DNA of 64,000 nucleotides from Leptogorgia sarmentosa (Eukaryota): positions 19,530,001 to 19,594,000 of the forward strand of contig OZ210885.1 of NCBI GenBank assembly GCA_964658305.1, in the 5' to 3' direction. The stretch's first letter is position 1. Each line of letters starts with the position of its first letter. The notes under the pieces are model-generated. The model saw nothing but the letters and a program-made list of their open reading frames with translations, did not search any database and was not told the DNA's origin. Positions 32,287 to 58,709 of this stretch are shown in pieces. Made by a program: the position numbers and the translations under genes.

Positions 32287-34656
32287 ATGTCTGCCGAAGA
32301 TAACTGCATTCGCTGCAAGGAGCCTGTAAGAGCTCGGCAACAGGGGCTGTTATGCGATTGCTGCGAAAGATGGCAACATCGGACCTGCAACAGTGGGATA
32401 TCGCTAAAAGCGTATCGAACCGCTGTTAGATGCGGTGAAGAAATTGACTGGTGTTGCGTAGACTTCTTGTTTGATTCTTGTTGCCTGCCGCAGAGAGCAC
32501 GAGACTGGTTCAAGAATGTGAGTATTCTACTCCATATAGCTGTATAGAAATGATTGATAATATAGAATAATATGAAAACTCAATAATTTAACTATTTGCA
32601 GCCGAACAAGAAGTAGATGAAGATTTAGTAAAGATGTTGGTCGACATGGCTGCTAGCGGTTCGGAAACTGACACACCCGAAGGAATGGACTGTGGCCCTC
32701 AAGGTATCAATTGCATTCGCCAGTCTTTTTTAGTGTAACTAAAAAATTGACGTCATGTATTGAGTACACGAAGTTATACTGATTGCACACAGTGCTTTAA
32801 AATAATAAGTACCTTTTTCGTTCAGAAATTCAGAATTGTCTGTCAAGATCTGTTGAGGCTCATAGTCTTCTAATGGAGGAAAATTTCAACGAAAGCATGC
32901 CTACTTTTGATGTTCTGGAACAGCTGACAGAATCGTCCATTGAAGACAACACGCCAAGACACTGGGAACATGATAATGCAACTACAGAGATAACATACCA
33001 ACTTATTGAAGATGGCTCGCAGAAAGGCAAAGAAAAGCTGGCAGACAGCCGAGGCTTCACGTACATCATTAAAGCGCAAAGAGTCAATGGCAATAAAGTT
33101 TGGAGGTGCAGCGTTAGGAACAAATCTGTATGGTGCAAAGCAATTGTATCACAAAAAGGTTCTGTCTTCACCCAGGGATCGCAGCCCCACACACAACCCG
33201 CCCAGCTTGGAGCAGCAGTTGCCACTAAAGTTGCAGCAGCGGCGAAGAAAATCACGGCCACTGAAATATTTACATCTGCCGCTGAAATAGTTAATAAGGT
33301 AATATGTTATTATTTTTTAATAAATTATTTCAATTGGGAGCTCATTATAAATCTTGGCTCCAGCAAATTCAAGCTTCATTTTAGGTAATTTTACTGATAC
33401 AGCGTTAAATCATTCATTGAATTTCCTTGTTAAAGCAAGTCTTTTAAATATTTTTTTAGGTAATGTTGGAACAGGGTGTGGTTACATCTAGTGAGCCATT
33501 GCCGGCATTGAGAAACCCAGAATACATTGCACGAGCAGCTAACCGTCACCGTCAACACATGCGACCAGCAGAGCCAACAGACTTAGAATTTGAAGTCAAC
33601 GAGGACCACATACCAGATGATTTTTTGAAGTCTGACATAAAGATCGATGGAAGGCGCCACTTGGTTTTTCCAACTGAAAACATGCTGAATTTACTGTCGA
33701 AGTCGAAGACATGGTATGTAGATGGGACTTTTAAAGTGGTAAAAGAACATTTTACGCAATTATTCACGATCCATTCGTTTGTGCGGAGTGGAGAATGCGT
33801 AAAGCAAGTGCCACTTGCATTCGTGTTGATGTCGGGCAAAAGACAACGGGACTACCGAAAAGTTCTGAAAGCAATAAAAGATCTAACGGGAAGCAGGAAA
33901 CTAGAAAAAATTATTCTCGACTTCGAGAATGCGGTATGGTGTGCAATTCCACAAGTGTTTCCAGGTGTCACGATTCGTGGCTGCTCTTTTCACTGGGCAC
34001 AGTGCATATGGAGGAAGATCCAGGATGTTGGTCTGGCCCCAGCCTATACAAACGATAACGCCACGCATAAACTATGCAGAAAGTTCCTTGCGCTGCCGTA
34101 CCTACCCAAGGAACATATATCAGCTATATTCGAGAAACTTGCGGCAAAGGCTACGTCTTCGCCAATGCTGATAGAACTCGTCAGGTATATTCGCACAAAC
34201 TGGATTGAAGGTAAAATAATGTAATTTTCGGGTAGTAAAACTCCCTTTCACTATGACTTTTGTCGCCGCTATATTTTTTAAACAGTAAAAAAATAACGTA
34301 TGTTCTGTTTATTTCTTGTTATTGAAGGTGAATTGTGGAAGCCGGAAACTTGGAGCGTGTTTTGTCAAGTTGTGAGAACCAACAACGACGTTGAAGGCTG
34401 GCATGGTATGCTAAATCGACATGCAAAGCGTGGGAACCTGAGCTTCTACTTGATGGTACGTCTTCTCCACGAGCAAGCACAGCTTGTCGCCATGCAAGTC
34501 CGGTTAGTGTCCGAGGAGAAGTTAAAGCGAAGACAAAGAAAAAAATATCGCCAGGTGCAAGGCAAACTTTTTGAGAATTGGTCGCAATATATAAATGGAG
34601 AGTTGTCAGCCATGAAGCTTTTGTCGAGATGCTCCTACCTCGCATCCCCAATCTAA
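32287..34656 (+). pseudogene. PHD-FLYWCH-MULE transposase, 5 exons (32287-32517, 32601-32703, 32826-33298, 33460-34210, 34328-34656)
   Basis: PHD 'CIRC...CDCCERWQHRTC', FLYWCH 'WRCSVRNKSVWC..H', DDE 'YVDGTF', 'LDFE', 'GCSFHW', 'RTNNDVEGWH'; GT-AG introns; one apparent frameshift near 32465. Confidence 0.88.
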
Positions 34657-36164: not shown

Positions 36165-36425
36165 CTGGATTTACATGCATATATACATGTATATATACAT
36201 ATATATTTTGCAGTCTGCTACAACTGCCCTGAACGAGCTTGGAAAAAGTGCTGAATCTGCAACAGTAGATCAGTGGGACATTTTTGGCAAGGATGTGGCC
36301 AGTCTCAGAAGCTCCTAGTGCACTATTCTAAGTGCAGTCATGCGTAACATGGGTATAAAAAGACTGAGTCACATGTAATCGGGGTCAGTTTGTTAAACTA
36401 GACTCCGGGTTAACTTCGTTGGATT

Positions 36426-36575
36426 ATGGCCGAACCCGTTGACGTCCCAGTCGTTTTGCCTGTACAAGTACCTGATGTCGCGCCAGAAGAAAATCCACCA
36501 GCCGTTGCAGCCGCACAGCACGATGATGAACCTCAAGTACAGCCTCAAGCGTTGCCTCAAGCGCAGCCCGCCGAG
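36426..36575 (+). CDS. Leader coding exon (50 codons, Pro/Val/Gln/Ala-rich) of element 1
   Basis: ATG at 36426; ends GAG|GTATGT (phase-0 donor at 36576); equivalent exon present in element 2. Confidence 0.7.
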
Positions 36576-37292
36576 GTATGTCGTTTTATACAGTGCCTTC
36601 AAACATTTTGAGATTTCTTTGGGGGCCATTCAGACTGACTGGCGTGAGTATCGTCTTTTTGGTTATTTTGTGTCTTACTTTTGAGATCAGCCTACCGCTT
36701 GCCTAGTTCTTAATCGTTCCGTTATTTGGGGCATTATTCTTGTCGCCCACCCAGTCATAGTTTTGGTTTGTGGGCCTTTGTAATTTTGGCTATTTACTAC
36801 GTTTATGAGGCCGGTTTCCGTGCTTGTTTCCCTGGTACCTTGTAGGCGTTGCTGCGCTGCGTGCTGCCAGCTTTTCTCGATCTTGTGTTGATTTGCTGAT
36901 TTTACAGAGCGATTTTTTCCCCAGTTTCGTACGACTGTTTGTCGCCAGTTATAATCAATGGTAATTATGGTATTTGTTTTATTTCCCTCCGGTAATCGTC
37001 GTTCATTCATTTAGGGTGTGTTCCCTTAATCCCGTATTTTACATAAGTGGCTTAGTTTCGTTATGCTTTGATGCACGCCCTGGTCATTTTAATACGGTAC
37101 AGCATTACAATCGTTCTTCGTTGCATTTATGTGCTAGGTTCATAGGTTTTATGTTTATGATTTAATCTCCCGCTATGGTTGGGCAAAGTTTTCCCGGTTT
37201 GATTGCATGGATGATGTTTGTTTTGCCTTAGACCTATAATTACTGGTGGTTTGATTTTACTTCCACTCTGGGGTCATTACTATAGCTTTTTC

Positions 37293-38141
37293 GGTTGAGG
37301 CCGACTTATCGTAGAGCATGGTTGGATGATTTGCTGTAGTCATTCAATTTCGATTCGGAAAGAAATGTTTTAGTTGAGGTCCAGTTATAATTATGTTTGA
37401 GGGTATGTTGTACATCAAGTATATTGGTTGGGGCCAATTCTAGTCCTGTACATATACGAGCAGGATGTGTTTGTTGATGCTACCTTACATATATAAAGGA
37501 ATGTCTATGTGGTGTCATTGGTTGCGGCCAATTTTAACTTTGTATAAACGTACGTCGCATTGTTTCACGGCGATTTATAGCCGCTGCGTGTCTGTACATG
37601 CGACAACCCCAGGATAGATATAGTATGATGCATTGGGTTCGCCCTATTTGCCAATGTATATGTCTAAACGTGTATGTGGTTGAGGCCAATTTATAATACG
37701 TGGTGGACATTGACTGTGTCGTTGAGACCGATTTACAATTCTGGTTAACAATACACCCTGCTGGTTGAGGCCAATTTGCGACTCGGTATGAGAATATCAT
37801 GTCTTAGTTGTAGCTACTTTACAACTTGGTCACTTCTGCATGACAATCAAACGTTGGTTGTGGCCAATTTCTAATGTTGGTTGAAGCGATACCCTGTATG
37901 TTCGGCCCAACTTGCGACTGTACGGAAATTATGTTTGTTGAGTGCAATTTACAGTGAACTGCGCGACAATCTGGTGAGTAGTGTCTAGATCTAGTGTCTA
38001 GTGGCCAATTTCAAGTCTATCTGACCGTCTAAAGTTTGGTTGTCGCCAACTGCATCTATGACCGGACGCATAATTTAGTGGTTGTGGCCAATTTCTGCCT
38101 TTTTATGCATGTAGCATACATGCACTCGTTGAGATCCGTTA
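37293..38141 (+). repeat. Array of about 19 copies of a ~15-nt repeat (GGTTGNGGCCAATTT) at about 43-nt period with divergent spacers, inside the putative intron 36576-38177
   Basis: Copies at 37293, 37372, 37426, 37472, 37520, 37635, 37678, 37720, 37763, 37806, 37856, 37899, 37936, 37997, 38038, 38080, 38127, plus weaker ones. Confidence 0.85.
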
Positions 38142-38177
38142 TGTGAATCTCGCTATAGTTTGGTTCTCGTGTTTTAG

Positions 38178-38693
38178 ATTGGAGAACAGTTACGATTGTT
38201 GAAAGAGGAAGTCCAGGCATTGCGTGCGAATCGTTCTCCACAAGATGGTGTTGATGCGGCGTTGCAATTTGTTCGCCAGCTGGCTTCATCACCTGTAACA
38301 TTGCGCGACCCAACCATGATTTCCGCCGCTCTTCAGACCTTAGCAGACCAGGCAAGGTGTGCCAGCCATCCAAAATCGGCTGAGTTTGAAGCCATACTAC
38401 GGCAAACGCGGCCATTACTTTATCGGCCTGAGTATGGCGATGTTATCATCAGATTGCTTGGCACAAAGGAGTAGACGGCCGTTGCGGCAACTATCGCCAA
38501 GATGACAAAGAACCTGACTTCCAATCGTCAACCTCCCGCCCACTCATATCGTCGCCAGTTTCGAGGTCGAGGGTCAGGTTGGCGTTTTGGTCGTGATCGT
38601 ACTGGGGCTAATCGTGCAACATTACTTTGTTTTCATTGTGGCCGTCCTGGTCATTTTCAGAGACATTGCCCCGATAAAAATTCTACAGCTTAA
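38178..38693 (+). pseudogene. gag-like exon of element 1 with CCHC knuckle (premature TAG at 38472-38474)
   Basis: Acceptor GTTTTAG|ATT; 'IGEQLRLLKEEVQALR...', 'CFHCGRPGHFQRHC'. Confidence 0.8.
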
Positions 38694-38987
38694 TGCGAAC
38701 ATTGCTTTGTATTACTGACACTTTGTATTCTTGGATACTATATTTAATTATATCATATATTGGCTCATTGTCTATTTTTGCTTTTACGTCTATTTCTCTA
38801 TTATTTCTCTATTTGAGTTGATCCTATTGAGTCCTCCTCGCCACTGCTGGACCTAGGTGCGGGCTTTGTACAGCCTTGTATGCCCCGCGAGGGGTTGCCT
38901 GGGGCCGACAGTGGTTGGGCGGGCTCCCTATGCCTCGGGTAAATCCTTTGTTTGTTTGCTAGTTTTGTTTTTTCTTTACCCCTTAAG

Positions 38988-41230
38988 GGTCTCCCCGCTC
39001 CTAAGCGCCAAAGAACAGATAAACGGAAGGCCTTTTTCCGCGGACATCACCCGAGGCCGAATATACAATGGTGTGATTGGCAAGGCTCGCCTGTGTCTTT
39101 CGTCGGCCCCAGACCCCCTCCGCTGATGGTTTCACGGGGTCAGGTTTTGGCCAGCCCACGAGACGTCATTTTCCGCAACCCTTCTTCGTTTGTTCCTGGG
39201 AATTGCACAACCATTATAACGAATGGGAACAGATTGTTCCTGTAGGTGAGGCGGAAGAAGTCCTCTCCTTTATTCGCCATGGGGTAGATGTGTGGCAGTA
39301 TTTCCACCCATTTAAGGGGAAGTTTGCGGGGCAACGTTATGATTCGGCCTATCCACCCTCTTGGGAATTCCCAAATAGCCCCTCTTGTGAGCGTTTCACA
39401 GTTTTTGTCCATTCAACTATCCAGGAGAGAGTCCGCACTGGATCTTTGATATTTTGGGGGTTTGTTGGTGAAGTGCAGCCCCCACATTTGGTCATGCCTA
39501 TCACCGTTGAACCGACAAAGCCGCGCATGTGCCATGACGAGCGGTTCCTTAACCTTTGGATTCGCGATCTACCATTTACTTTAGATTATTTATCTGACTT
39601 ACCACGATATGTTGGTCGTGGCCATTTTCAGACGGTTTGTGATGACAAGAGTGGCTATGACCATTTAATGCTTACCCCATCTAGTAGAACAATGTTTGGT
39701 CTGCGTTGGGATGGTTGTTATTTCGTTTATGCCTCCTTACCGTTCGGCTGGAAGGCAAGTGCATATGTGTACCATTCCACCGGTTTGGTGGCCACCAGCT
39801 ATATTCGTACATTAAACGTCCCTTGCAGTCAATACATTGACGATAGACATAATGGTCAACTGGTTTGTCCATCTAGTGGCACCTGGTCTGATTTTGAACG
39901 AGCCGAAGCAGCGGCTTATATTGTTACCGCCGTACTCACAATCCTCGGTTATACCATCGCTCTCACGAAATCATCCTTGATACCTTCCCAGTGCGTACGT
40001 TTCTTGGGTTATTTGTCAAATTCTCTACTCATGGCGTTCGTTTTGCCCGACGATAAGAAACAGAAATTTCGAATATTAAGGGAGGTTATTTTATCTCAAG
40101 AGGAAGTCGGCCTTCAGATGTTGCAGCGGTTCGCGGGCAAAACAACATCTTTTTCTATCGCAGTCCCAGCTGCCCAATTGTACACTCGGGTCAATTATCG
40201 TGCTATTGGGTCGCATCAGACGCGGTTAGGCGGGTCAATTCCGGTTACCGGCGAGTTACGTGATCAGATTGCATTTTGGCGATTCCTGGATACCTGGGAG
40301 GGGCATCTTCCGTGGTTTGACGAGAGACACTACGTACTTAAATTTTTTGCGGATGCCTCAAACTCGGGTTGGGGAGGAGTTCTTTGTCCACTCGGTGGCG
40401 AACATTCTACACTTCGCGATTATTGGGAGCCAACTCATCAGCCCAAGCCTATGGTTGTCAAAGAGGCTCTTGCCCTCCTGAAAACCCTTTCTGTTGCGGC
40501 TCAGTCTTGGTCTAATTGCCACGTCGATGCACATTCGGACAGCTTGACATTTGTTAAGGCCTGGAAGAACCAAGGGAGCAAGAGTGCCGACCTCACTTCG
40601 GTCATTCAGTCTATCTTCGAGTTGTCACTCCGCGCCAATATTAGCCTCACTCTCTACCACGTGCCATCCAAGGCAAACTTAGCAGATGCTCCGTCTCGAG
40701 TTTTGTCCATGGCCGACTGCATGCTTGCTGAGCACGCGTGGCAAGATTTGCAGCGTCGTTGGGGACCTCATACGGTCGATCTTATGTCCCTGGATTCCAA
40801 CGTGCATACAGGTCTTGACGGCTTGCCACTACGTCATTTCTCCCCTTGGCCGACGCCCGACTCTGCGGGCGTTAATCTGTTCGCTCAATCGCTTGATGGC
40901 ACAGAAAATGCCTATGTGTTCCCCCCGTTGCCGGTCATTGGCCCTGTCCTTCGCTTCCTGTTCTCTGGTAAATGCAGCTTTACTGTTGTTCTCCCTGACC
41001 TCTTTCCACGACGCTTTTGGTGGCCCTTGATGCATGGACGTGCCCTGGATAAGTTTCGATTAGAAGGCAAAGGTCAATCCGGTATTCTCCTCTTCCCCAC
41101 GCGAGCAGGTAATTTCGAGGATAAACCTCTGGAATGGGATCTTTGGGCGTTTCGGGTGCAAATTGTTCTCTCCATTTCCCAACCTCCGCTTCCTTGTTTA
41201 GGGAGTTCCTCGGTTATGGCGACCAGCTAA
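38988..41230 (+). pseudogene. pol of element 1: RT, RNase H and Dam-like methyltransferase domain (one frameshift near 39198)
   Basis: 'DDKSGYDH', 'LPFGW', 'YIDD', 'FADASNSGWGG', 'NLADAPSR', 'VDLMSLDSN...GVNLFAQ...YVFPP'. Confidence 0.92.
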
Positions 41231-42514
41231 GACGTGTAGAGAATGCCATTACCTGAATGACGATTGCGCTGTGTTTTGTCAAAGATGTGGCGTCCAGCAG
41301 CTCTCGACCGCCGTCGGCACACCCGGTCTGCCTTCATCTACTAAAACAGTGAGACCCGATATCACGATGATAGACAAGCGTATCTCTGAACTTCAGCAGG
41401 CAAGGACTTCGACGCCTTATGGGCGTCAAAAATCGCAGCTGGGGGTTGAATCGCAGGCGTTTCTTGCCTCCTTATCCCCTTCTAAAACATCTCTCTCGTC
41501 TACACCACAGGATGTGGTCCGGTTCCTAGTATGGAAGGACCAAAAAGGACGAACAAAGGTTCACCAGCAGCACTGCCAATTCATTGGTTCTCGCGCCAAA
41601 TGCCTATGTGATTGCCGCGGGGACTGTCGATTCTACTATTGGCAAACTTCGAGCTATATTTAATAGCCTGGGTCGTTCGGGTGGGGGCAATCCTGCTGCA
41701 CACTTCACGGTTACACAATACCTCAAGTCTATTCAAACAACAAGCTGCAGCTAGGATTTCTCCTCGCCAGGCTACATCACTCTTTTTTGACAAATTTCGT
41801 CTGATCATCCTTCACTTGCGCTCTCTTCTTTGCAATTCCACATCGTCAGCTATCGATAAGTATATTTATGCCCGTGATCTGACATTTTTTACTCTTGAGT
41901 TTTATACCGGTCAGCGCGCCTCGGACCTTGGCAGACTAAAAACAGTTGACATTTCACAGAATCCGGACGGCCGCAGTTTGCTTATTCACCAACGAGTCGG
42001 GAAAACTCTCCGAGGAAGTCGTTCGAGGCCAATTCCCATCCGCCCGTTAGCGAATCCCGCCTTCTGCCCTGTCGCAAATTTAACATTCTACCGTACACTT
42101 TGCACCGCAATGCGAATTGATTTGGGTGTTGGTTTCCTCTTTCGCACAACATCACATCGTGTGTCGGTTTCTAGTTCCCCGTTTTTGGTGTCGGCGGCAC
42201 AAGCTCGGTTGGTGTCATATTTGAAGTCGCTGGGGCTCTACACTAACGAGACTGTGCACGGTTTCCGGGGGGGTACCGCTCTGCTGCTCAAGATGCTTGG
42301 TGCCTCAAGTGACGATATTGCACGCCACATAGGATGGTGCTCAACTGCCATGGTGGATCATTACACACAAGTTGATAAGGTTTCCGCGATCCTAGACACG
42401 GGCGATAAACTTGGGGATAGTATTCTTTCCCGTGCGGGGCAGGTTCCAGCCCAGGTCTTGGGACGTCGATTTACCGAATGTAATAATTTAACGGGTTTCG
42501 AACCGTTTTTCTAG
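41202..42514 (+). pseudogene. Tyrosine recombinase of element 1 with N-terminal C4 zinc ribbon (frameshifted at about 41610-41730)
   Basis: 'CRECHYLND...FCQRCG', 'GQRASDLG', 'GKTLRG', 'HGFRGG', 'HIGW', 'DHY'. Confidence 0.9.
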
Positions 42515-42802
42515 TTAACCCATAATCCTATCAGCTGTGTTTGTCTTTATTGTTTTGTTTTCTTTCTTTTCTTTCGTGTGGAGTTTTGGGGGAGAGAGTT
42601 TTGGGGGAGAGAGTTTTGGGGTTTTCGGGTTTAAGTTACGGGTAATGTTAGGTAGGTATAGACAGGGAAATAAAACTTATTTTTAGCCGGGTTTGCAATC
42701 CTAGCTAACTTACATGACCCGGTGACAGGGCTCGCATTTCCCATAACTCTCATCCCGTAAACCCATGGTAGCATGATTGCAATTGGAATAGATTACCATA
42801 TC

Positions 42803-44430
42803 CAGTGGTGTGGACAAGGGGGGCCTTGTGTAATGGGATACACAATGGGTTTTACTGAGAGTATTTTTTAATTCATCAAACTTTTCCTTCTCTAGGTTTC
42901 GTCAAAGAGTGATCAGGTTTTTATCAAAGTTGGCTTTGGTAATTGGAAGAAATCTGAAGTTTTGACTAAGCACCAAAAATCAGACTGTCACAAGCAATCT
43001 CTTCATGCATACCGTTATTGGAAACATCAGAAATCAGTTAGAAATACAAGAGTCTTATCATCAACAGACAGTGAGTAGTCATTCAGTGTTCATATATATC
43101 CATACAATTTTTCTCTTTTTCCCACAGCTAGTTTTCTTCATTCAATTACAAACACCTAATGGTTCTTTAGGTGAAAAGAAATTGAACGATTATTGGCAGA
43201 ATTATTAATGTGGTGCAACTACTGGGCAAACTTAATTTGCCCTTTAGAGGATGCCACAAGGGTGAATGCTCAATGAATAAGGGGGGTTTTAAAGGATTCA
43301 TTGCACATATGGCAGAGTTACCTGCTTATTGAAAGCCATCTAAATGATTGTGCAGGTACATACAGTATTAAAGTCTTGGTGTTCATTAATGTACAGTAAC
43401 ATGTGATAAACAACAGCACACATCGCCAGCATAGGTAGCCCTTCAGGAAGGATAATCTCACTACCTAAACGACAAAACAGATTAGATGTTTCAACCGAAG
43501 GCCATTAGTAAGATGTGAGTGCTGACTGAAAATCAGTATATACATATTTTTTTCATCAGCCACATGTGGTAGTAGTAACAGGCAATGACTGGAAACCAAG
43601 ACTTAAATGTTGGTTTGTAGTATTGTTCAGTCAGAGAAAATTGTTCTTCTTGTAGATAATGCAAAGTATATCAGCCCTGCAATTCAGAATGAAATGATCC
43701 AGTTAGTTGGGTGTGCTATTTTGGATGAAATTGTGCACAGGGTCGAAGAAGCAAAGCTGTATTCAATTATAGCAGATGAAACTCCTGATAATAGTAAAAC
43801 AGAACAGTTCTCTGCTTGTCCGTTATGTTTGGAATGGGAAAGTGGAAGAACGCTTTTGGCAGTTATACCAATAAAAGAAACCTCAGCTGAAGTTCTTTTC
43901 AATACTGTTTGCAATAAAGTAGAAGAACATGGAATAGAAATTTCAAATTTACACGGACAATGCTATGTTGGTGCAAGCAATGTTTCAGTTCACACCGGAT
44001 TACAAGCACAAATTAAAGAACCCACAACTCTCAGAATTCTCTCTCAGAGAAAAAATGCTCATTTCACCCATTGCTATGGCCATGTGTTGAACCTTGTCAT
44101 TGTGGGCACAATGAATAACAACCCAATTGCAAAAGATTTCTCTGGAACATTACAAAATTTGTATGTGTTCATTGAAACCTGGTCCAAACGACATGCAGTT
44201 TATTTGGATCAACAAAGAAAGGTTAACCAGGCTTCTGGTGAAGAAGAAGAAAGTGAGATACCAGATGGGCCTGTCGTGCTGATAGCATTGAAGCAATCCA
44301 CCACACTATAAAAGCAGTAATTGCAACTTTAGAGGATATTCGGGAAAATGAGAAGAAAGCTAATACCGCCACTGAAGCAAAAGGGTTACTGAAAAATGTC
44401 AAGGAGTTTGAATTTATCCTGGCATTGGAG
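42803..44430 (+). mobile_element. hAT (ZMYM1-like) element, 5' part, degenerate
   Basis: Start CAGTGGTGTGGACAAGGGGGG; 'GFGNWKK', 'YISPAIQNEMI', 'IIADETPD', 'THCYGHVLNL'. Confidence 0.85.
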
Positions 44431-47400
44431 GTATATTTTCTATATTTTATTGAACACTTGTTTATGGCTTTTTAATGATATGCTAATGCAATGAAGAACA
44501 GGAAATCTGAATTGAATTCTAAAATTCAGCTCATTTTCAACCAATGGGAATAAGATCACCTGTTAAACTCGTTCGTATTGACCATATTTATATTTCTGTT
44601 TTTTTACCGTTAATTTAGGGAACGGTCAAATATATGTTTCTGCCAAAAAGACGTCAATAGGACGTCTCTTACAAAACCCCCTCCCAAAGACATCAGGCTC
44701 CAATAGCGGATAATTTGTACGACTTTATCTCCACATTTCTCAAGACTCCAATACTGAGAGTGGTCACGTTTATTAAAAATATAAATGTATTTCCCACCTA
44801 TTTATATTCCTACGTGTATAATCATAATCACTCGATTATTGTCTGACTATAGACAGTAACTGCAAAAAGTAACACAATTGTGATCAATTAACTTGACAAA
44901 AAATGGACTCATATCTATCAAATACATTCTTCACAGTAGAATTTGTTATTAATCGGTACTTCTTATCTTATTCCGATACAAAAAATGTGGAACCATTTGA
45001 AACAGCTGTCACAGGAGACCTATCCAATAGTATCATCATCAATGTCTTCGTTGTCCAGTTAATTTTCTGGTGGGTCAATCTGTTTGCATATCTCCCAAAC
45101 TTCTTCATTTTCATTCGCTTCAGCTTTCTCATTGGAATCACTTTGATCTACGTCATTAGGCTTTTCGGGAATTGATGAGTTAGCATAGGCTACTCGTTTA
45201 GGAGCTAGGAAGGTTTCCATTCTTGCTTGTTCAGAATTTTGGCTATCTAGCTTATTTTTGCTCTGTCTTGCCCTCTTGCGACTGTCATAGATCTTGTGAT
45301 TCATGAGATCTTTGTGTTGCAGGAGTTGGCGGCATGACTGAAAAGAAAGCCCACAGTCCTTGTAAGTGCACTCGTACCTATTTTCCAGCTGTTTTCGAGA
45401 TGCATTTTGCAACGTCTTGGTTTTGGATCTTTTTGGGTGAAAGAATCTGCAATGTTTTTCTTTTTCTGTTTTTGATGAAAATGACCATGCAGGACAAACT
45501 TCACATCTTCCTAAGATTTCAGTTTTTTGTGCTTCTATTTTCATCTTCTGTGATTTTTAAAGGGCAGAAAGTTTCTTGTAGTTTTAGATGTTCTTTCTCT
45601 ATTTCTACCATTTCCAAAAATGTTTTGTAAGATCCATGAATTAGCTCACTAGGTTCTGGATCAAAAATGCCGTGGGTTGTAATAAAATTCCAGAATTGTT
45701 TTGCACTCACTGGATGGTGGTTGCAATGTTTGCAATTGTTACACTTGCTAATTATTATTTCATACTTTCTACGATCTACGTGCTTTAGTGCCTCTTTAAA
45801 TTCTTCATGAATGGCAACATGGGGACCTGACAAATTTCTGGAAGTTGTCAATTTACTGTAAGCATGAACAGAATGAAAGGTGCAATTTGTATGTTGTAAA
45901 CCTGTCGGAATGTTCACTGCCACAACAGGCCAGCATCCATCGAATGCCAGCTTTTTCCAGTAAACGTTAGCAACCTTATCCAGCTCTCTGTCAAAAACCT
46001 CTATCTCTTTTTTCTTTACTTCTTCGGGTGCCAGCCAAACCAGAAATAAAAACTGGAGGCTTGTCATCACCATTTGCTACCGGTTTCCCTCGAACATCTG
46101 TTAATGCCTTTGACAGAAGAGACCATAAATGCTCTATTGAATTGTAAGCAGAGTAACCAGGTGTATATGATGTAACGATTAGTGCATCTTCGTGTTCTTT
46201 CCAAAGGCGATAATAGTAGAGCAAATTTTGATAATGTTGAGGGTTTCTATCAGGACCTCGGTCAGTGATCACAATCACAACTTTCTTTCCTGTAGTGTAT
46301 TTGCATATTAGAATACAAAATTAATCTAGATAGTATGAATATGTAGCATAGTTAATTAATGTGGTCTTATTGTTTGTCTGTCATCTGCTTGTGGAATACT
46401 GAAAAGCTTAGTTAAAAGTATAAATCGAATCCAGTGCAATCTGCAATTTATTTAGTGTTAGAACACTACATTTCCGTCTTTTATAGCTCTTTTGATAATA
46501 GGTTCAATGTCCTCATTATGAGTCTCCATGTTAACTTTTGGTGCTTTGTTGCTCTTATATAGACGTGGGCTGGTCCAGTATGAGGGGTTTTCAGATGCGG
46601 TCTACCGTGCTTGTCTTTAACAAGCGCTGATGATTCAAAACCCTTTTCCATCAAATTTTCATCAATTGTTTCTCTAGCATTTTCAACATTTCACTCCACT
46701 TTCATGATAATGCAGTCGATAACTTCAGTTAATACGTTTTGTCTGAATATATCATCTACATTACAAAGTTCTTCATCAAAACTTGTTGATTGTTTATAAA
46801 TCTCAATAAAGTTTACCTCTGAAGTATTCAGAGTAAAATTGTTTTTGAATCTAAGTTCCATCAAACCACTTGGTTTTCCTAAATATCCTGGGACTGGAAA
46901 GTCATGGTCTTCATGATCCGGGAAATTGTCTACTGGGTATAGTTGATTATTCTGATGGTAGCGACTCACCATTGTGTAGCTGCTCAATCTCAACTGATTC
47001 ATACAATGTACAGATAGAACCAAAACCTCATCATTGAACATTGATGCCATTTTTCTTTGGTATTTAAGAGATCGTCTCTGTAAAAACCGTCCACAGGTTA
47101 CAGGAATAAAAATATAACAATCCTTTATTTTTTGTCAAATAAAAGGTATTCCAGCCTGATAAAGTGATTCAGGTTTGTTTTTGCAAAACAGTCTTTTGTT
47201 TCGGTTTTAGAGCGCATTCAGTATGCCTACTATTCACTGCTGGTAATGCCGCCATTTTACCGCCTAATTTTAGCAAAATTTTGAAGGAGCTATTATCACT
47301 CAAGGAATTATCCTCAAATTGTGCCATAGATTTTTCCGACCATTCAGAACATTGCTAACAAAAACTGATATGAATAAAGAAATCTGTCACATTTGTTTCA

Positions 47401-47968
47401 TTTTTAACACGAAATAAAAATCAGTGGTTGACCCACGATGGATATCAAGTCAAATTTGTACACTGAAAATAAGGTCATTTTTCTGGAAAGTGGATCGTTG
47501 ACAGTTCATTATTGCTCTTGCACGGTACTAAGTACACCTATATCTATTAAAATCTGCTGATAAAGTTTGTGGTCAAGCTTTTATTTAGTGGCCAGGAATC
47601 TATAAAGATGTCCCTAATTACGGCTTATGCGTGCGCCATTTGCAAAATAGTGTAACAGTGTCATCGTTTTGTAATGCCTCATTAAACGCAAAGAATATCG
47701 TTCAGACAACCGAAAAATAATCGGAATTGTAATGAAGACAATTAAACGTTAGAAACGTACGAAACGAAACGTACCTTGCTTTTTTCGATTCAATAAACTT
47801 GTTTTGATCCTATGCAGTTTCAGTGCAATTTAACTATAGCTTGCTGAAGAGAGAATCTAATTGTCGCAGGTCCATTGATCGATTTACTCATTTTTAAAGA
47901 ATACCACATAGCTACTTCTGCCGCGAAGATTGCAGTCACAGTTAGGTCAACGTGGTAATGCACTTTCC

Positions 47969-49173
47969 TGGATCCAATCGTATCTGGATGGCAGAACGCA
48001 GCGAATTTCAGTTTATGGCATACTCTGATAGATTTGATTTAGAATGCGGTGTTCCACAGGGCTCGTGTTTAGGCCCGTTGCTATTTACGGTTTATACTAG
48101 CAAACTGTTTGAGATCTTACGTTCGCACCTTCCTTCTGCACATGCCTACGCTGATGACACCCAATTATATGTCTTTCAGACCATCTGAAAGACTGAGTGA
48201 AGTTGATGCTGTGGCTGCACTGGAGAACTGAATCTGTGATGTGCGTGCTTGGATGAAAGAAGACATGCTGTGGTTAAATGATGACAAAACGGAGTTTTTA
48301 CTGATTGGCAGTCGTCAACAGCTGGCCAAAGTGTCCATCAACAGCATCAGAGTTGGTGAAGCTGACGTTATACCTGTGTCGAATGCAAAGAACCAGGGAA
48401 CTTGGTTTGACTCCCACATGAACATGTCTACTCATATATCCAAGACTTGCAGCAGTGCGTTCTACTATCTTTACAACATTCGTCACATCAGGAAATACCT
48501 CTCAAGGGAACATGCTGAACGGTTGATTCATGCCTTCGTCACAAGCAAATTGGACTATTGTAATAGCCTGTTGTATGGTGTTCCAGAATGCCAGATAAAG
48601 AAACTTCAACGCTAGTGCTAGGCTTATCTATTGCACGCCCAAGTTTTGCCATATCACTCCAATACTTAAGGAGTTGCACTGGTTGCCAGTGCGCGCACGC
48701 ATAAAATATAAAATTTTACTTATTACGTTTAACGTTATTAAGGGATTAGCCCCTAAATATCTTTCCGACTTGGTGGAAATATTGCAGACATCGAGGTATG
48801 ACTTGCGACATAATAGTAATGGTGTTCTATTAGCTAGAAGTACAATAAGAACCAAGAAGACAATGGGCGACCGTGCATTCATGATCGCTGCTCCAATGTT
48901 GTGGAATAGATTGCCTTTATCTGTTAGACAAGCAACTACTATTGACACCTTCAAGTCTTTGGTGAAGACCTATTTATTCACCATGACATATAATTAATAT
49001 AACATTATTGACATAAATATACGATTTTATTGGAAAAATTTTTTATTTTTAAGCATGTAATCATAAGTTGTAATCGATTACCATAGTTTTCCATTTTATC
49101 TTTGTATTATTGTTATGCGCATATGATTATCATATAGAATATGCGCAATATAAATATTAAATATTATTATTAT
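47969..49173 (+). mobile_element. 5'-truncated L2 LINE inserted in the left Sola3 TIR
   Basis: 'GVPQGSCLGPLLF', 'YADDTQLY', 'LNDDKTEFL', 'LHWLPV'; (ATT)n tail ends at 49173 where TIR sequence resumes. Confidence 0.9.
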
Positions 49174-51939: not shown

Positions 51940-52300
51940 TTAATTGCTGCCGAGCGTAGCGAGGCAGCACACTATTCTTGACACGCGGTGGTTTCCCCAG
52001 AGTCTACTCGACCCAGTCTTTCGCGCGAGTTATGTATTGCCGAGATCGAGATCTTGTGTCTGTCTGTCTGTCTGTCCATAAAGATGTTTGTCGTATCCGG
52101 GGGCATAATTAAGCTTCAGGGACGTTTGTTAAAAGAGGGGAGCGGTCAGAATAATTAAGCTTCAAGTACGTAGCGCGCGCACACGGCACGCATCTCCATG
52201 TGCGTCAAGAATCGAAAGGTTTTTACAAAAGCGTTTCATACAGATGCAAGATTTTGCTAATGTTTTATGCGTTGTGGTTGGCCCAGGTTGGGTAATTTGG
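51940..52300 (+). mobile_element. HINE/DINE-1-like (Helentron-associated) element in a Sola3 intron; right boundary uncertain
   Basis: 5' hairpin TGCTGCCGAGCGTAGCGAGGCAGCA and (GTCT)n microsatellite at about 52057-52077. Confidence 0.45.
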
Positions 52301-53976
52301 TATTTATGGCGATCACACATCAATGATGCAAGCAATGTTCAGAATGCTAGCTCTAATAGACTGTTAGGGTTAGTGTTTACTATGCTATTACTAATAGTAT
52401 AGTAAACACTAACCCTAACAGTAAACCTTCACCCTAACTGGCGTGCTGTTGCTTTTCAAAGAACGGGACATAAACACAATATGCGCACTGAATCGCATTT
52501 TTAATTATTATGTTGAGCTTGCGATTAAATAACGAGATATAAACGTGGTAAACTTAATCGGTAATAATTTTCACTTCGTATGATCGTACACGAAGAACGA
52601 AGGCTGTCACACGCTGCTTTCTGAATACTCGGGTATATCACATTTCACTTCGTGTCATCGTATTACGAAAAAATGTATCTTGCCCAGGCTTTTTAAAAAC
52701 TCGGATACATTACATTACGTGATCATTTTGACTTCGTATCATCGTATCATGATAACAAGTCACTGTTTCAAAAGTGGACAGGTATTCTATAACCCAGCCG
52801 GGATTTTAAAGTTTGAGCGCAACGCCAGCACATTTCCTTGCGATAGTAACTCCTTGTATATCATTATTTTATACAATCTACAGACCCAATTGTTTTTGAA
52901 CAGTCAATTGTTTTTACTCGTTTCTAGGCACTTTCTTCCTTGAATTTGATTAATTTTTTGTGACATTAATTTTTTGATGACCTTACCGACGTTCAAGTCG
53001 TGAGTCAATAGCAACTTCCTCGACCTCATTCGACTCAGGTACCTGCTCTTCTGCTTTGATTGGATGCAGCCATTTCTCCCTTGAGATAATTCGTTTCTGC
53101 TTTTTCCTACATGTGCTACAAATACCTACAGATCAATAAAGACAATTTACATCCCTGATATTTATTCCTAAATGACTGGCGTATAACGAGGAAGGCAAAC
53201 CTAAAAGCCTCAAGTGATTTGCTCTACCCATAGGGAGACAACTATCCTCAGCTACAAACATAACATAGGTGAGTATTTGTGTGCTGGAAAGTCAAAATGA
53301 ATGAACTTAAAGGCAAGTGCCAAGGGCAACTATAGCATACAGACCCTCAAAGGACTAAGGTAGTTGGTAATGAAAACATTCACCACACACTAGACCGTGC
53401 AATCAAGATTAATCGGAATTCCTTTTGACAATAGTAATATATTCATAGCGGACCCCTTTCCACACAATGCTCTGGGCCCAGGGCGAGAGGTTGAAAGGTG
53501 GTCGTGTGTCGCAGATGAGGGGAGGTGGGTGGGTTGATTTCTCGTGTTATTAGCCTCCTTCTAGCGGGAACACCGTGAAATGGCGAAAAACTGTGCTGAA
53601 TGTCGCCTTTTATATGATTTTCTCGGTCGTTTATTATTGTTACGTCATATGCTAATGTTTACACTTGAAATACTTAGTTAATTACATGCGCTCAGGCAAA
53701 ATGCGGAAATGGCTCCACTGTGAATAGTAATATATTCATAGCGGACCCCTTTCCACACAATGCTCTGGGCGAGGGTGTATTAAGATTGGGGTAACACGCG
53801 AATTTGTAACCCTCGGCAATAGTTATACTCAGGCTGATACCCATCCCAATACCCCTGAACACACTAGATTAAACTGCAAACACGCCGCTTTCTCCAAAAC
53901 TCAGAAAACCAAGCAAAAAAAAAACACAGAAATGAATAAACTTTATTAAAGTATGATGTAGCGGAAAGCGCGAAAA

Positions 53977-54896
53977 TTATGTGAATGCGGGTTTGAAATC
54001 TTGAAGGTAGTTACGTGTTTGGAATTGTTGTCCCAAACGCGCTGCCTCTGGTGGTGCGTGTGGGGATGGTGAAGAAACGCCTTTCGCCATGACGCCGGCT
54101 ACTTTTGTAATGTTCATTACTCTGTCCGTCTGCGAGTAGTATACAGCGATTTGAGGGTTCTTCCAACCAACGTGTTGTGCGATCTCCTGTGTTGAGACGC
54201 TTAGAAGAGACAGCGTGATGGAGCATCCCGAGCGAAAGCTGTGCATTGTTTCGCCTTCGTGGAGCCCGCAGGCAGTTAGGTGTTTTTTGAGAGCGTGGGC
54301 GACAGCGGAGCGTTGAAATGGGGCGTTTATGACGCATCCTCGATTGTTCGTGGGGCGGAATAAATATCCCTGGTTGAGGTGAATGCCCATTCTTTTAGAT
54401 AGAGTAACGTAGAGTCGGAGATTTGTCACCGGACAGACCGCTTGGTTTGCGCACTCTTTAAGGGCAAACACGTTTTCTCCCTGGCCGCGAAGGGTTTTGC
54501 CAAACGTTTGGCGGAAGAGGAGACCGTTGCCTTCGGGGAGTTGCAAAATTTCACAAGTTTTAATTCTACCTAGATCAGATGCCCGATCACCGGAAAAAAA
54601 AAAAATCGACACACACAAAAGCTAGGTCTCGGAAAAATCGGTAACGCTCTACGGGACTAAGTGAAGGCGTGAGAGCGTAGGTAGCGACATAAGGTTTCGA
54701 ATTTATTGAACAGGATTGGCTTTGCTTGTTTAGGTGTCACTTTAGCTTGTGTCTGCTCCTCTCGAATCGACATAAGGTAGTGTTTCAAGACGGGGTGAGT
54801 CGCAGGATTTCCGCTTCCGAGTGAGTCGTGTGTGCCTGAACGGCCGACGGCGGTAAAAAATGCACGCAACTTTCCAATATAACTGTCCACTGTTCT
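53977..54896 (-). pseudogene. Tyrosine recombinase (C-terminal part) of element 2
   Basis: 'TVDSYIGKLRAFF', 'SGDRASDLG', 'GKTLRG', 'HSFRSG', 'HVGW', 'YYSQ'; homologous to the YR of element 1. Confidence 0.9.
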
Positions 54897-54919
54897 CCCG
54901 CAGGGAATTGTCAGGTGTG

Positions 54920-55960
54920 AGGTGAAATTCTATAGCAATACCATCACACAATAGCTATAAACATGAATGAATTCTAATAGATGCCGTCACATAGCAGCAA
55001 TTAAATGTGAGTAAATTCTATGTAACACTTTGATCCATAACGAGACCGTCGCACAGCAGTTATTGAACGTGAGTAAAATTTGTTCTGCGATAAAGGCGAG
55101 ATACAGCTGCCATTTAGTGTGAGTAAATTCTACAGTAAAGTCGTCACATAACAGCATTTAAGGTTGGGTAAACGGCCCGATAAATCCGACAGTATGATGC
55201 CGTCACACAGCAGTCAATAAATATGAGCAAATTATATAGATATGTCATATGTGGTCACCCAGCAAACATATAAACATGAGTAAATCGATTCTATATCAGT
55301 GCTGTCACACAGCAGCCATCAAAGGTGAATGAATCTTGTAGTGTCGTCACGCAGCAGTCGTCAAAAGTGAGTAGAAATCTCATAATTATGCCGTCACACA
55401 GCAGCGATTTTGAGGAAATTATGATATTGCTGTTACGTAGCAACCAGTTATACGAAAAATAAAATGGATATCTAAATGTCAGTGCCGTCACACAGCAGCC
55501 ATCAAAAGTGAGTAGAACTCATAATGCCGTCACACAGCAGCGATTTTGAGGAAATTATGATATTGCTGTTACGTAGCAACCAGTTAGACGAAAATAAAAT
55601 TGATATCTAAATCAGTGCCGTCACACAGCAGCCATCAAAAGTGAGTAGAACTCATAATGCCGTCACACAGCAGCGATTTTGAGTAAATTATAATATTGCT
55701 GTTACATAGCAAACAGACGAAAATAAAATTGATATCTAAGTATCAGTGCCGTCACACAGCAGCCATCAAAAGTGAGTAAATCTTGTAGTGCCGTCACACA
55801 GCAGCCATTTTGTGAGTAAATTCTATAGTAATATTGTCACACTGCAGCCATTTAATGTGAGTTGAGTTAATTCTATATAGTATAGTGCCGTCACACAGCA
55901 GCCATGGGTAATGAATAAGTTCTATAATAATGCGGTCACACAGAGGTGTGAGTAAACTGT
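54920..55960 (-). repeat. Array of about 22 degenerate units (modal period about 43 nt; core TGCTGTGTGACGGCA on the sense strand) with a higher-order triplication of about 133 bp
   Basis: GCCGTCACACAGCAGC...GTGAGTAAA recurs at e.g. 54983, 55199, 55390, 55484, 55526, 55617, 55659, 55748, 55790, 55887. Confidence 0.9.
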
Positions 55961-56744
55961 ACGAGTAGGCTAATGCCACATCGGCAACATTTGTTCAAAG
56001 GGTATGCAGATTGAGACAGGCTGGGAGCGCGCGAGGTAAGATGGCTGATTCTTCGGTACGAATGAAACTGAACCGAGCTGGAGGAAAGACATGATAAGAT
56101 CCAGTTAAAGGTACCATGATAACAAAATACATAGTATAGATAACAATTCGCAATACAAATAGACAAGAATATGCTACGGCTAAAATAGCAGCGGCGCGGC
56201 CGGACACTATCATATGGTAGGGGAATACAACTAATACTAAATAGGCATGCAGTGACAAAACTGGAAAGTAACCCAACCCGGGGCATTATCCAGTCTGTAA
56301 GCCGAAATGAACCCCCTGAACAAACGAGAAACTCCGTCGAAGACAGTGTATAAGGCGTATTTAGAAAGCCCCTCTCATTGAAAAAGAGAAAACTTAACGA
56401 CACCTAACAGCCAGGATAAATAAAAGGAGAGATATGAACGAAGCCCGGGGGAAATATCCAGCCTAATGCAAGCGAAATGAAACTCCGAGGAGTAGGACTA
56501 TTGCCGACGACAGAAAGCGTACTAAGAAATACCCTTAGGTGACCAGAGTAAATAAGTGAAAATACTGAAGACAAACAACCGCCTGGATATGTGAGGTATA
56601 CTATAACGGTGCTAGGATACATAGGCGACTGCATTGATGATAGACAAGACAAAGACGAATACCGTTCCTAATTGCAGCTAGCAAACCGATGGCGAAAGCC
56701 AGGTATGAACATGGAGGCTATAAAGATGAAAGTAAAAAACCAAC

Positions 56745-56918
56745 CCGTGGTTGTGGGCCAGCTGGTGGCAAGACGGCTAGAGCGGCTGGTTGTTCGGCAA
56801 CCGGTTGAGGATTGTTATCAATCGGGTTCATATTAGCTTCGGGTTGTGCGGCTGCGAGTTCTTCAATGACTTGCAAGACATCAACTTGTTGAGGTTGAAC
56901 AGGAGGTTGGTCTGCCAT
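56745..56918 (-). CDS. Leader coding exon (58 codons, Pro/Gln/Ala-rich) of element 2
   Basis: 'MADQPPVQPQQVDV...PPAGPQPR', then a phase-0 GTTGGT donor and pyrimidine-rich non-coding sequence; same position as the leader of element 1. Confidence 0.6.
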
Positions 56919-58203
56919 GGCGGTTTACTGTGGCTCAGCTGCGACACACAGCATGTCCAGAACTTCTCGTGTTATTAGCCTCCTTCTAGCGGGAACACAG
57001 TGAAATGGCGAAAAACTGTGCAGAATGTCGCCTTTTATATGATTTTCTCGGTCGTTTATTATTGTTACGTCATATGCTAATGTTTACACTTGAAATACTT
57101 AGTTAATTACATGCGCTCAGGCAAAATGCGGAAATGGCTCCACTGTGAATAGTTCTTCATCCTGTGCTGTGATAATGTGATTTGCCAATGTTTTCAATCA
57201 CAATGTCGACATACTTCCGCGATCCAACTGCAATATGCGTCCGGTACAACTGCATCACGGTTTCTGCCATTACTGTTCCAACAGTCCCTCGGTCTTTAAC
57301 TTGCTTCGCCTTTCCAGTATGTGCAGGGTACTGGCAAGACCAGAATTTGCCAAGAGAATGTCTATAGCCAGGACAAATCCACATTTTTGCTATCTGATTT
57401 GCTGAGACTGTGTAGAATCCTGCTCGAGCAAGAATTAATTCATATTCCACAAGTTGTACCGACCCTAAGTGACACGATGACAAGATGATTTCTGATGTCA
57501 TCTTTACAGTCAATAAGTTGATATAATGCATAATTTCCCCAGGATTCACCACAAGTACCTTGACATTTCCCTTCTAAAAAGCAAGCCACCATCGTTGTTT
57601 CTTAAATAAATCTATGAATCAATTTGATGAATATAACTAACCAAGCAATGACCTAACCGGAAACGTGTGTGCAATACTAATTCGGTAAATTAAAACCTAA
57701 TAATATAAATTTTGAAGCAAACTATTAACGATTATAGTTTTTTTGAGTCTCCAATTTTTGCATTGGTGTTGCACTTTAGACTGCAAAACAGTAACAGAAT
57801 CGCTAAACGATTCTAGGGAACAAGATTTTGATCGGACTAGTTTTATCAAAACTGGAATATCTGCACACCTCAGAACATGTCAATTTAATGTATAGCTACG
57901 CGTATGTAAACAATAAGTACGAACGAACAACGAACAATAATATTACAATGTTTCACACATTTCTAGCAAACTTTTTGAAGTTAACTTTTATCAGCACCAC
58001 TTTGATTACAAATGTGTAGTATTCGGTATTCCTTGAAAATGAGTAAATCAGCAAATGGATCAAGTTGTGAAGTACTCGGTAAGTGGCAGCTCATGGTAGG
58101 CAATTGCACTGAAACTGCATATAAGATCAAAACAAGTTTATATTGAATCGACAAAAGCAAGGTACGTTTTGTTTTCTAACGTTTAATTGTCTCAATTACA
58201 ATT

Positions 58204-58709
58204 ATCAATTATTGGACGAGGTCGAGCAAAATATCGCGATTTGTCGGCGGCGAGCAGATCAATTATTTGCCGATGCCTGCGAGATCTCGTCCAATAATTG
58301 TTTTATTATTCACTTAGAAAGCATACTTAGCTACAAGGTAGACGTATACAACGAGCTTTACATACAAATTTTATTTCATAAAAAAATAATACTGGTTTAC
58401 AGAAAACACCTTTTAAATTTTTCTTTCTTTTAAATAATGCCGGAAGACACTGAGTGGCGGCCGTTTTGGTGGCTTTTTTTGTATCATCTGAATTTTTTTC
58501 CTCTAGTAAACAAGACAGCTCGTCTTCTGATAGTTCAGGAAAACGAGCCGCCATTGTTTACAAAAAAGTGACGCATTGCGCATGCTCAGACTATTATTTG
58601 CAGGTGAGCAACCTTTTTAACAAATGCGCATGCTCAGACTATTATTTGCACGCAGTTATTTGCAGGTAAATTGACCAATCAAAATTGAGAATACTATAAA
58701 GTGAATAAT
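58204..58709 (-). mobile_element. Non-autonomous Crypton derivative inserted in the right Sola3 TIR
   Basis: Absent from the left TIR (empty site AATT at 47725-47728); encodes Crypton-type N-terminus 'MAARFPELSEDEL..LLEEKNSDDTKKATK'; terminal ATCAATTATTGGACGAGG. Confidence 0.85.

What the first reader, a model, noticed from the sequence alone, without database searches (positions are those of the whole stretch)
36426..41230. One 50-codon leader exon fits in frame onto three acceptors opening gag, pol and the recombinase
Seen: a phase-0 donor GAG|GTATGT at 36575/36576 and three pyrimidine-tract-plus-AG sites, each followed by a phase-0 frame that has no nearby ATG of its own. These are TTTTAG|ATT at 38178 (gag, IGEQLRLL), TTTCTTTACCCCTTAAG|GGT at 38988 (pol, GLPAPKRQR) and CTTCCTTGTTTAG|GGA at 41202 (YR, GVPRLWRPAKTCREC). 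Element 2 has an equivalent 58-codon leader with a phase-0 GT. Inference: the retrotransposon expresses all three proteins by alternative 3' splice-site choice from a shared N-terminal peptide, while replicating through an unspliced RNA that keeps the 1.6-kb intron. Splicing is known for some DIRS elements, but I do not know this shared coding-leader three-way layout.
Basis: partly seen in the sequence, partly recalled or inferred. Interest (0 to 1): 0.8.

Follow-up and report, generated by a model that had tools for sequence, protein, structure and literature searches.

The report
One start exon, three retrotransposon genes
A jumping gene of a probable coral or sea anemone likely makes its three proteins by splicing one short first exon onto three separate genes; the splice to the first gene is seen in sequencing data, while the other two are inferred from splice signals kept in dozens of distant relatives.

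Summary
The element (36322-42796) is a damaged ALOG-type, Pat1-like tyrosine-recombinase (YR) retrotransposon. The junction 36575->38178 (GT..AG) appears in contigs of two runs of one study (run kind not on record) and not in two deep runs. The pol and YR junctions were not seen; those two runs barely cover them. In relatives, the best acceptor is phase 0 before gag in 16 of 17 families, pol in 22 of 30 and YR in 19 of 20. All 14 sequences with a clear leader end it at a phase-0 GT. No other conserved donor was found in gag or late pol. gag and pol never overlap (0 of 31), which excludes a frameshift. A polyadenylation signal follows gag in 18 of 21 families. One database protein joins a leader to YR at its siblings' acceptor. 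Against: each frame has an ATG 47-56 codons in, and five families show no leader. Best reading: one leader, three alternative last exons, unspliced RNA as replication template (about 0.85). I found no paper describing this; the main reviews were unreadable. The scan noted this layout earlier in four other genomes.

The parts
36322..42796 (+). Element 1: damaged ALOG-type Pat1-like YR retrotransposon; both outer ends present, internal repeat duplication absent
   Evidence: Loose ends of three runs at 36322-36324; end sequences and their match to the repeat junction of relatives
36323..36354 (+). Left arm of an imperfect inverted pair (likely recombinase binding arm)
   Evidence: 84% over 32 nt to 42761-42791; end-to-end palindrome score 15, null maximum 14 in 300 draws
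36324..36403 (+). Block repeated elsewhere in family members (A repeat); holds a TATA-like box at 36354 and an initiator-like TCAGTT at 36385
   Evidence: About double depth and loose ends at 36403 in X1/X2; motif positions; promoter role inferred
36426..36575 (+). Shared coding leader exon, 50 codons, Pro/Ala/Glu/Val/Gln-rich, phase-0 donor at 36575/36576
36576..38177 (+). 1,602-nt intron with 39 ATGs and a dispersed short-repeat array (GGCCAATTT x6, about 37420-38110)
   Evidence: Joint skipping 1602 nt, GT..AG; repeats
38178..38693 (+). gag exon with C-terminal zinc knuckle; stop codon at 38472-38474 in this copy
   Evidence: (zf-CCHC); acceptor used
38694..38987 (+). Non-coding gag-pol spacer, stops in all frames; carries AWTAAA in most relatives but not in this copy; ends in the pol acceptor
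38988..41230 (+). pol exon (RT, RNase H, adenine-methyltransferase fold); frame break near 39200-39245 in this copy; splice inferred
   Evidence: acceptor conservation
41202..42514 (+). YR exon (zinc ribbon, ALOG, tyrosine recombinase); frame breaks near 41610-41750; splice inferred
   Evidence: acceptor conservation; P0360
42669..42674 (+). AATAAA after the YR stop (likely 3' poly(A) signal)
   Evidence: Read from sequence; 15 of 20 families have one, 2.8 expected
42761..42796 (+). Right arm of the inverted pair and right end of the element
53430..57153 (-). Element 2: internally deleted relative with complete split direct repeats A1-B1-A2-B2, leader, repeat-array intron and a YR remnant; no gag or pol
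   Evidence: (D4, D7)
56745..56918 (-). Element 2 leader exon, 58 codons, phase-0 GT (weak donor)

Best explanation
This YR retrotransposon family likely makes Gag, Pol and recombinase from one promoter by splicing a single short coding exon, which supplies the start codon, onto one of three alternative last exons; the gag splice is seen, the pol and recombinase splices are inferred. Steps: (1) transcription starts in the 5' A repeat (inferred from TATA/initiator-like motifs). (2) Leader->gag splicing (shown), with polyadenylation in the gag-pol spacer (inferred) gives a short, probably abundant Gag mRNA. (3) Skipping gag gives leader-Pol, and skipping gag and pol gives leader-YR (inferred from conserved phase-0 acceptors). 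[quoted passage not shown] (5) The circular junction rebuilds a palindromic site that the recombinase integrates (inferred from the end structure and from what is known of YR elements). The leader is conserved in composition and phase, not sequence, so it probably acts as a start-codon donor and disordered tag.
For:: joint 36575->38178, GT..AG, in X4 and X5 (depth 9.8, 7.7), beside intron-keeping contigs; absent from X1/X2 at depth 650-1000; one representative per family, chosen blind to phase: best acceptor phase 0 in 16/17 (gag), 22/30 (pol), 19/20 (YR); control windows show no such excess (intron 93/72/135; inside genes 105/54/70, 189/234/274, 135/100/150). (five loci fetched later): pol 3/4, YR 2/2, gag 0/1, leader phase 0 in L081; phase-blind leader search, 14 of 37 sequences score 40 or more, all 14 phase 0 (9 groups); the 22 scoring below 0 split 9/8/5; no phase-0 donor scoring 3.5 or more in gag (0/29 families), 2/21 in late pol; gag and pol never overlap (0/31; gaps 111-711 nt, mixed frames); pol and YR do not overlap in 21/29; 14/19 YR and 11/16 gag frames have no in-frame ATG in their first 40 or so codons. 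AWTAAA in 18/21 gag-pol spacers (2.7 expected by shuffling; 2/18 in intron windows). P0360 carries a leader-like peptide joined to YR exactly where siblings read FLCQQ|LAPE. Gene models P0064 (leader+pol) and P0204 (RefSeq, leader+gag) show the same joins.
Against: Neither 36575->38988 nor 36575->41202 was seen. Both runs with the gag joint come from one study, their kind is not on record, and each joint rests on one contig with 28 letters on the short side. In-frame ATGs exist downstream: pol has one within 47 codons in 20/23 families; 4/16 gag frames have one within 7 codons. 8/30 pol representatives are not phase 0 (copies are often frame-broken, but I did not prove that case by case). Five families with 2 kb or more upstream show no leader (L008, L009/L010, L038, L068/L073, L079). 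No leader of the coral type was found among 150 YR hits. The window copy lacks the canonical gag poly(A) signal. Splice scores are my own heuristics, the leader score was shaped on this window's leader, and families are related, so binomial p-values overstate independence. P0360's DNA could not be seen, and gene models are predictions.
Confidence: 0.85

Rival explanations
1. Only gag is spliced to the leader. Pol and/or YR come from internal promoters or internal initiation at their own downstream ATGs, as hepadnavirus polymerase does.
For: Only the gag junction was seen. Pol has an in-frame ATG within 47 codons in 20/23 families; in the window at 39126, and YR at 41367.
Against: It does not explain phase-0 acceptors in 22/30 and 19/20 families. 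The conserved W-x-x-W-x-G motif of pol and the YR zinc ribbon lie upstream of those ATGs in the window and most long-distance cases. P0360 shows a leader-YR join.
Confidence: 0.08
2. The pol and YR acceptors are real but are joined to other donors (chain splicing to give leader-Gag-Pol or Pol-YR fusions).
For: Some gene models fuse gag to pol (P0022, P0203) or pol to YR (P0028, P0105, P0462).
Against: No conserved phase-0 donor in gag (0/29 strong) or in the last 120 codons of pol (2/21), and best-donor phases are mixed. The fused models join at differing points, as gene predictors do on repeats.
Confidence: 0.05
3. Ribosomal frameshift or read-through makes Pol and YR, and the AG sites are chance features of a T-rich strand.
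For: In the window the YR frame overlaps the end of pol by 29 nt; 8/29 loci show some overlap. The strand is T-rich.
Against: gag and pol are separated by 111-711 nt in 31/31 loci, with mixed frame relations; 21/29 pol-YR pairs do not overlap. Acceptor scores of 5.5 or more in 71-85% of representatives against 8-23% in control windows.
Confidence: 0.02

Closest known systems
ALOG-containing DIRS1-like retroposons (Iyer and Aravind 2012, PMC3537659; parts 1-2 of 5 read, rest word-searched)
   Same: Gag with zinc knuckle, RT-RNase H, adenine-methylase domain, YR with N-terminal zinc ribbon and ALOG; present in Nematostella and Acropora.
   Different: The paper's main text holds no 'intron', 'splic', 'exon' or 'frameshift'; it defines the structure from Ectocarpus and treats metazoan copies as fragmented. 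No shared leader exon is described.
Echinoderm-form Pat1-like elements (Szitenberg et al. 2014, PMC4157794; passages read)
   Same: Split direct repeats A1-B1-A2-B2, methyltransferase domain, zinc finger in Gag, reported from Nematostella and Lottia.
   Different: No expression strategy in the passages seen. Here the ORFs barely overlap and are separated by spacers that end in acceptors, whereas DIRS-order ORFs are described as frequently overlapping (PMC6681497, PMC9210276; passages).
Foamy virus pol and env mRNAs (PMC3705302; passages read)
   Same: Pol is made apart from Gag from a spliced mRNA that shares one 5' donor with another gene.
   Different: There the acceptor lies upstream of Pol's own start codon and Gag comes from unspliced RNA. 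Here Gag too needs splicing and the shared exon is coding.
Plant Ty1/Copia short GAG subgenomic RNA, EVD (Oberlin et al. 2017, PMC5580714; abstract and outline read)
   Same: Splicing coupled to early termination gives a dedicated Gag mRNA while full-length RNA stays unspliced.
   Different: One splice within a gag-pol polyprotein gene; no shared leader, no third exon, DDE integrase.

Membership tests
YR (DIRS-order) retrotransposon | gag, RT-RNase H and tyrosine recombinase genes | tested here: met
   zf-CCHC and Phage_integrase; RVT_1 in 45/47 and RT_RNaseH in 29/47 aligned members
ALOG-type DIRS1-like retroposon (Iyer and Aravind) | ALOG domain before the recombinase core, zinc ribbon at the N-terminus | tested here: met
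   PF04852, E 2.2e-11; invariant CxxC...C in 14 aligned sequences
ALOG-type / PAT / DIRS1-like (not Ngaro) | Adenine-methyltransferase domain after RNase H | tested here: met
   Model pLDDT 84; best fold match cap-specific adenosine methyltransferase, E 3.4e-5. Sequence searches of PDB and PHROGs found nothing
Pat1-like, echinoderm form | Split direct repeats A1-B1-A2-B2 with the internal pair after YR | tested here: inconclusive
   Met in element 2 and L052; partly in L001, L004, L024, L053, L080. Element 1 keeps both outer ends but has no internal duplicate; doubled depth and loose ends show the 5' block is repeated in other copies
Pat1-like | Zinc finger in Gag | tested here: met
   PF00098 at 38475-38690
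Pat1-like | RT tree placement with reference SpPat1 | not tested
   No named reference sequence was fetched
DIRS1-like in the strict sense | Long inverted terminal repeats with an internal complementary region | tested here: not met
   No long inverted repeats in element 1 or relatives; only the roughly 30-nt arms that also form the B1|A2 junction of relatives
Ngaro-like | No methyltransferase domain | tested here: not met
   Methyltransferase fold present

The most novel reading that the evidence does not exclude
A whole clade of marine-invertebrate YR retrotransposons expresses every protein from a spliced mRNA: one coding leader exon and three mutually exclusive last exons. The unspliced RNA then encodes only a short dead-end peptide and serves purely as genome, which separates mRNA from replication template completely. 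The lineage-specific repeat arrays in the first intron would mark that unspliced RNA for packaging, and the spliced RNAs would occasionally be copied back as intron-less inserts (P0360).
Probability: 0.55. Interest if true: 0.8.

Novelty: new variant of a known kind. Interest (0 to 1): 0.68.

Why it matters
How YR retrotransposons express their separate gag, pol and recombinase genes is little studied. This gives a concrete, testable answer for one widespread clade: splice-site choice and alternative polyadenylation set the Gag:Pol:YR ratio, with no frameshift. It also means these retroelements keep a spliceosomal intron through reverse transcription, and that databases call their proteins with wrong N-termini (many hits start inside the pyrimidine tract). 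An element whose genes each come as 'acceptor + ORF + poly(A) signal' is ready-made for capture by host genes. Abascal et al. (PMC4495291, passages read) inferred such an acceptor and poly(A) signal for the DIRS1-like gag that became LAP2-alpha, although that is a different DIRS lineage; the plant ALOG genes derive from this one.

Tried and rejected
No whole genome is held for the window. No RNA holder was listed; this says nothing about expression. Pol and YR junctions were not seen, but X4/X5 have depth of about 0-5 at the pol acceptor and 0 over 39628-41915, so this is not evidence either way. The depth step after gag in X4/X5 fits a short gag mRNA, but contigs cannot show RNA ends or levels, so it was not counted. 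The first metagenome scan with the single pol protein found nothing. The virus collection was not scanned successfully. A profile search for leader-YR fusion proteins gave no coral-type leader among the best 150 of 1509 hits; three RefSeq models from Ptychodera, Branchiostoma and Mytilus join some upstream exon to the YR start. TATA or initiator motifs are not general: TATA in 6 of 15 leaders. A poly(A) signal after pol is only modestly enriched (8/21, 2.6 expected). Aligning 5' ends across families was uninformative. In the window my acceptor score preferred 38115 over the acceptor actually used at 38178, which shows the score's limits. Literature: ten searches showed no paper on native splicing in YR retrotransposons. 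Word searches found none in PMC3537659, PMC3266345 or PMC9210276; in the 12 of 15 passages shown for PMC7192593, splicing concerns an engineered marker. Poulter and Butler 2015 is not held; Goodwin and Poulter 2004, Poulter and Goodwin 2005 and Repbase entries were not seen, and no supplements were read. These could already mention exons.
Full report
Observation. The coordinates are right. 36426-36575 is a 50-codon ATG frame ending GAG|GTATGT, and the AGs before 38178, 38988 and 41202 each open a phase-0 frame. These frames are the starts of gag (zinc knuckle), pol and a recombinase with an ALOG domain. The copy is dead: a stop in gag at 38472-38474 and frame breaks in pol and YR. In-frame ATGs do occur, 47, 47 and 56 codons after the three acceptors; 51 ATGs lie between the leader start and the pol acceptor and 85 before the YR acceptor. 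Named homologues come from Acropora, Montipora, Oculina and Actinostola, so the host is probably an anthozoan (inference). No genome is held.

What the element is. It runs from 36322 to 42796. Contigs of three runs diverge from the window at 36322-36324. The two ends carry an imperfect inverted pair, 36323-36354 and 42761-42791. Placed end to end they score 15 as a palindrome, against a null maximum of 14 in 300 random windows. The same kind of palindrome sits at the internal B1|A2 junction of L001, L080, L024, L053 and element 2 (scores 13-20), but not clearly in L052 or L004. Element 2 (57153-53430, minus) and L052 have complete split direct repeats; element 1 lacks the internal duplicate. 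The C-terminal pol domain folds like an adenosine N6-methyltransferase. Together these fit the ALOG-containing retroposons of Iyer and Aravind (PMC3537659) and the echinoderm-form Pat1-like group (PMC4157794), and exclude Ngaro and strict DIRS1. Tree placement was not tested.

Direct evidence. Five runs hold the stretch, none on record as RNA; four were laid on 36300-42520. X4 and X5 (one study) each show a joint that skips 1,602 nt with GT..AG ends, that is 36575->38178, beside contigs that keep the intron. X1 and X2 (one sample, depth 650-1000) run through both sites unbroken. Whether X4/X5 are RNA or DNA holding a processed copy, the joint requires splicing. No joint to 38988 or 41202 was seen, but these two runs have little cover at the first and none at the second. 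X1/X2 also show a derivative lacking 39615-42023 at about twice the depth of the full-length form.

Comparative evidence for the acceptors. A metagenome scan returned 198 matches, of which the best 80 were kept (pol 38-72% identical in the best segment). With the two window elements, 24, 57 and 38 sequences had a scorable gag, pol and YR start. The best-scoring AG upstream was phase 0 in 22/24, 43/57 and 35/38. After grouping at 80% nucleotide identity (39 groups) and taking the most intact member, the counts were 16/17, 22/30 and 19/20; the frame was open from the acceptor in 15, 21 and 17. Control windows gave lower scores and no phase-0 excess of this size. Five loci fetched afterwards gave pol 3/4, YR 2/2 and gag 0/1. 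Independently, many database proteins called on genomic contigs begin with an F/L/S-rich stretch ending in Q just before the conserved start, which is what reading into a pyrimidine tract and CAG in phase 0 looks like (seen, not counted). The scores are my own heuristics and the groups are related, so the p-values are optimistic.

Comparative evidence for the leader. A phase-blind search of 37 sequences gave two clear classes: 14 score 40 or more, all with a 40-66-codon Pro/Ala/Glu/Val/Gln-rich peptide and a phase-0 GT 775-2,279 nt before gag (9 groups); L036 is intermediate; 22 score below zero with mixed phases. Many of the 22 are cut short, but five families with 2 kb or more upstream show no leader, which is unexplained. 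The composition score was shaped on this window's leader. The strong donors inside gag are never phase 0 (0/29 families), and only 2/21 are in late pol, so the leader donor is the only conserved partner found for the three acceptors. None of the upstream frames printed shows a leader fused directly to a gene, so these genomic copies keep the intron.

Alternatives to splicing. gag and pol never overlap (0/31 loci; 111-711 nt apart, mixed frames), and pol and YR do not overlap in 21/29. 14/19 YR frames have no ATG in their first 40 or so codons and four more have one only after the zinc ribbon. Pol is the weak point: 20/23 families have an ATG within 47 codons, although the conserved W-x-x-W-x-G motif often lies upstream of it, as in the window.

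An added feature. AWTAAA lies in the gag-pol spacer in 18/21 families (2.7 expected by shuffling; 2/18 in equal windows of the intron; the reverse motif, 14, is close to its expected 12) and after YR in 15/20 (2.8 expected); after pol only 8/21. The window copy is one of the three exceptions for gag. This points to alternative last exons with their own poly(A) sites.

Joined proteins in databases. P0360 (unnamed, on a 577-kb contig) is a leader-like peptide joined to a recombinase exactly where three of its aligned siblings read FLCQQ|LAPE; it is the only such form among the 15 of 21 cluster members listed. It may be an intron-less retrocopy or a gene model; its DNA could not be fetched. P0064 (Actinostola model) joins a leader to pol and P0204 (Oculina RefSeq model) to gag. 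These are predictions. The best 150 hits of a profile search held no further coral-type leader-YR protein.

Mechanism. One promoter in the 5' repeat (TATA-like 36354, initiator-like 36385; inferred) gives one pre-mRNA. The leader is spliced to gag (shown), pol or YR (inferred), and gag RNA ends in the spacer (inferred). [quoted passage not shown] Confidence 0.85. Rivals: internal starts for pol/YR 0.08, chain splicing 0.05, frameshift 0.02.

Comparison and novelty. It works partly like foamy virus (Pol from a spliced RNA sharing a donor; PMC3705302) and like plant Copia (spliced, early-ending Gag RNA; PMC5580714), but in neither is the shared exon coding for all proteins. Ten literature searches and word searches of the papers named under Tried and rejected found no description of native splicing in YR retrotransposons. 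The main reviews, Repbase and supplements were not seen. The element class is known; the expression plan appears undescribed: a new variant of a known kind. This scan's own notes report the same layout in four other genomes; they are not evidence, and my reading was formed before I saw them. Interest 0.68.

Noticed in passing
window 37420-38110; 54930-55950; L005, L007, L009, L016, L020, L031, L043, L046, L052: The leader-gag intron carries arrays of a short dispersed repeat, a different motif in each family (5-20 copies of a 9-mer against null maxima of mostly 2-4, up to 9). Several families show none. Possible packaging, splicing-control or protein-binding sites.
   Followed up: partly
window 36322-36354 and 42761-42796; L001:5660-5730; L080; L024; L053; element 2: The B|A junction is an imperfect palindrome around a short spacer (GAATA-N6-TATTC in several), like a lox or dif site; element ends share the core ACTATT.
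   Followed up: partly
window 39615-42023 (runs X1, X2): A deletion derivative lacking most of pol and the first part of YR is about twice as deep as the full-length form; X4/X5 have no cover over most of that stretch. Element 2 is a similar non-autonomous form with intact repeats.
   Followed up: no
window 40667-41161: The pol methyltransferase domain's best structural match is the cap-specific mRNA adenosine methyltransferase (6IRV), which raises RNA as a possible ligand; earlier work calls this domain inactive.
   Followed up: partly
L036, L038, L053: More distant relatives have longer gag N-termini or spacers; L038 has an ATG right at its gag acceptor and L036 a Gly/Pro-rich leader, so the plan may vary at the clade's edge.
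   Followed up: no
L081-L085: These animal retrotransposons sit inside bacterial metagenome-assembled genomes, which points to host-DNA contamination of those assemblies.
   Followed up: no
window 47064-59372: Long inverted arms (370 nt at 98%, plus further pieces) bracket element 2 and two frames at 49379-50560 and 50952-51971 (weak RFX-like hit): a probable DNA transposon into which element 2 inserted.
   Followed up: no
window 2595-5423 (-), 8658-9380, 21213-24326, 32801-34224, 43607-44311, 62764-63234: Other decayed mobile elements: a DUF1758/protease (BEL-like) remnant, DUF4371 (hAT-like) pieces, MULE/SWIM/FLYWCH pieces and an HTH_21 frame.
   Followed up: no
window 15998-17224: 408-codon open frame on an A-rich strand with a weak zinc-knuckle-like match to gag and no Pfam hit.
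   Followed up: no
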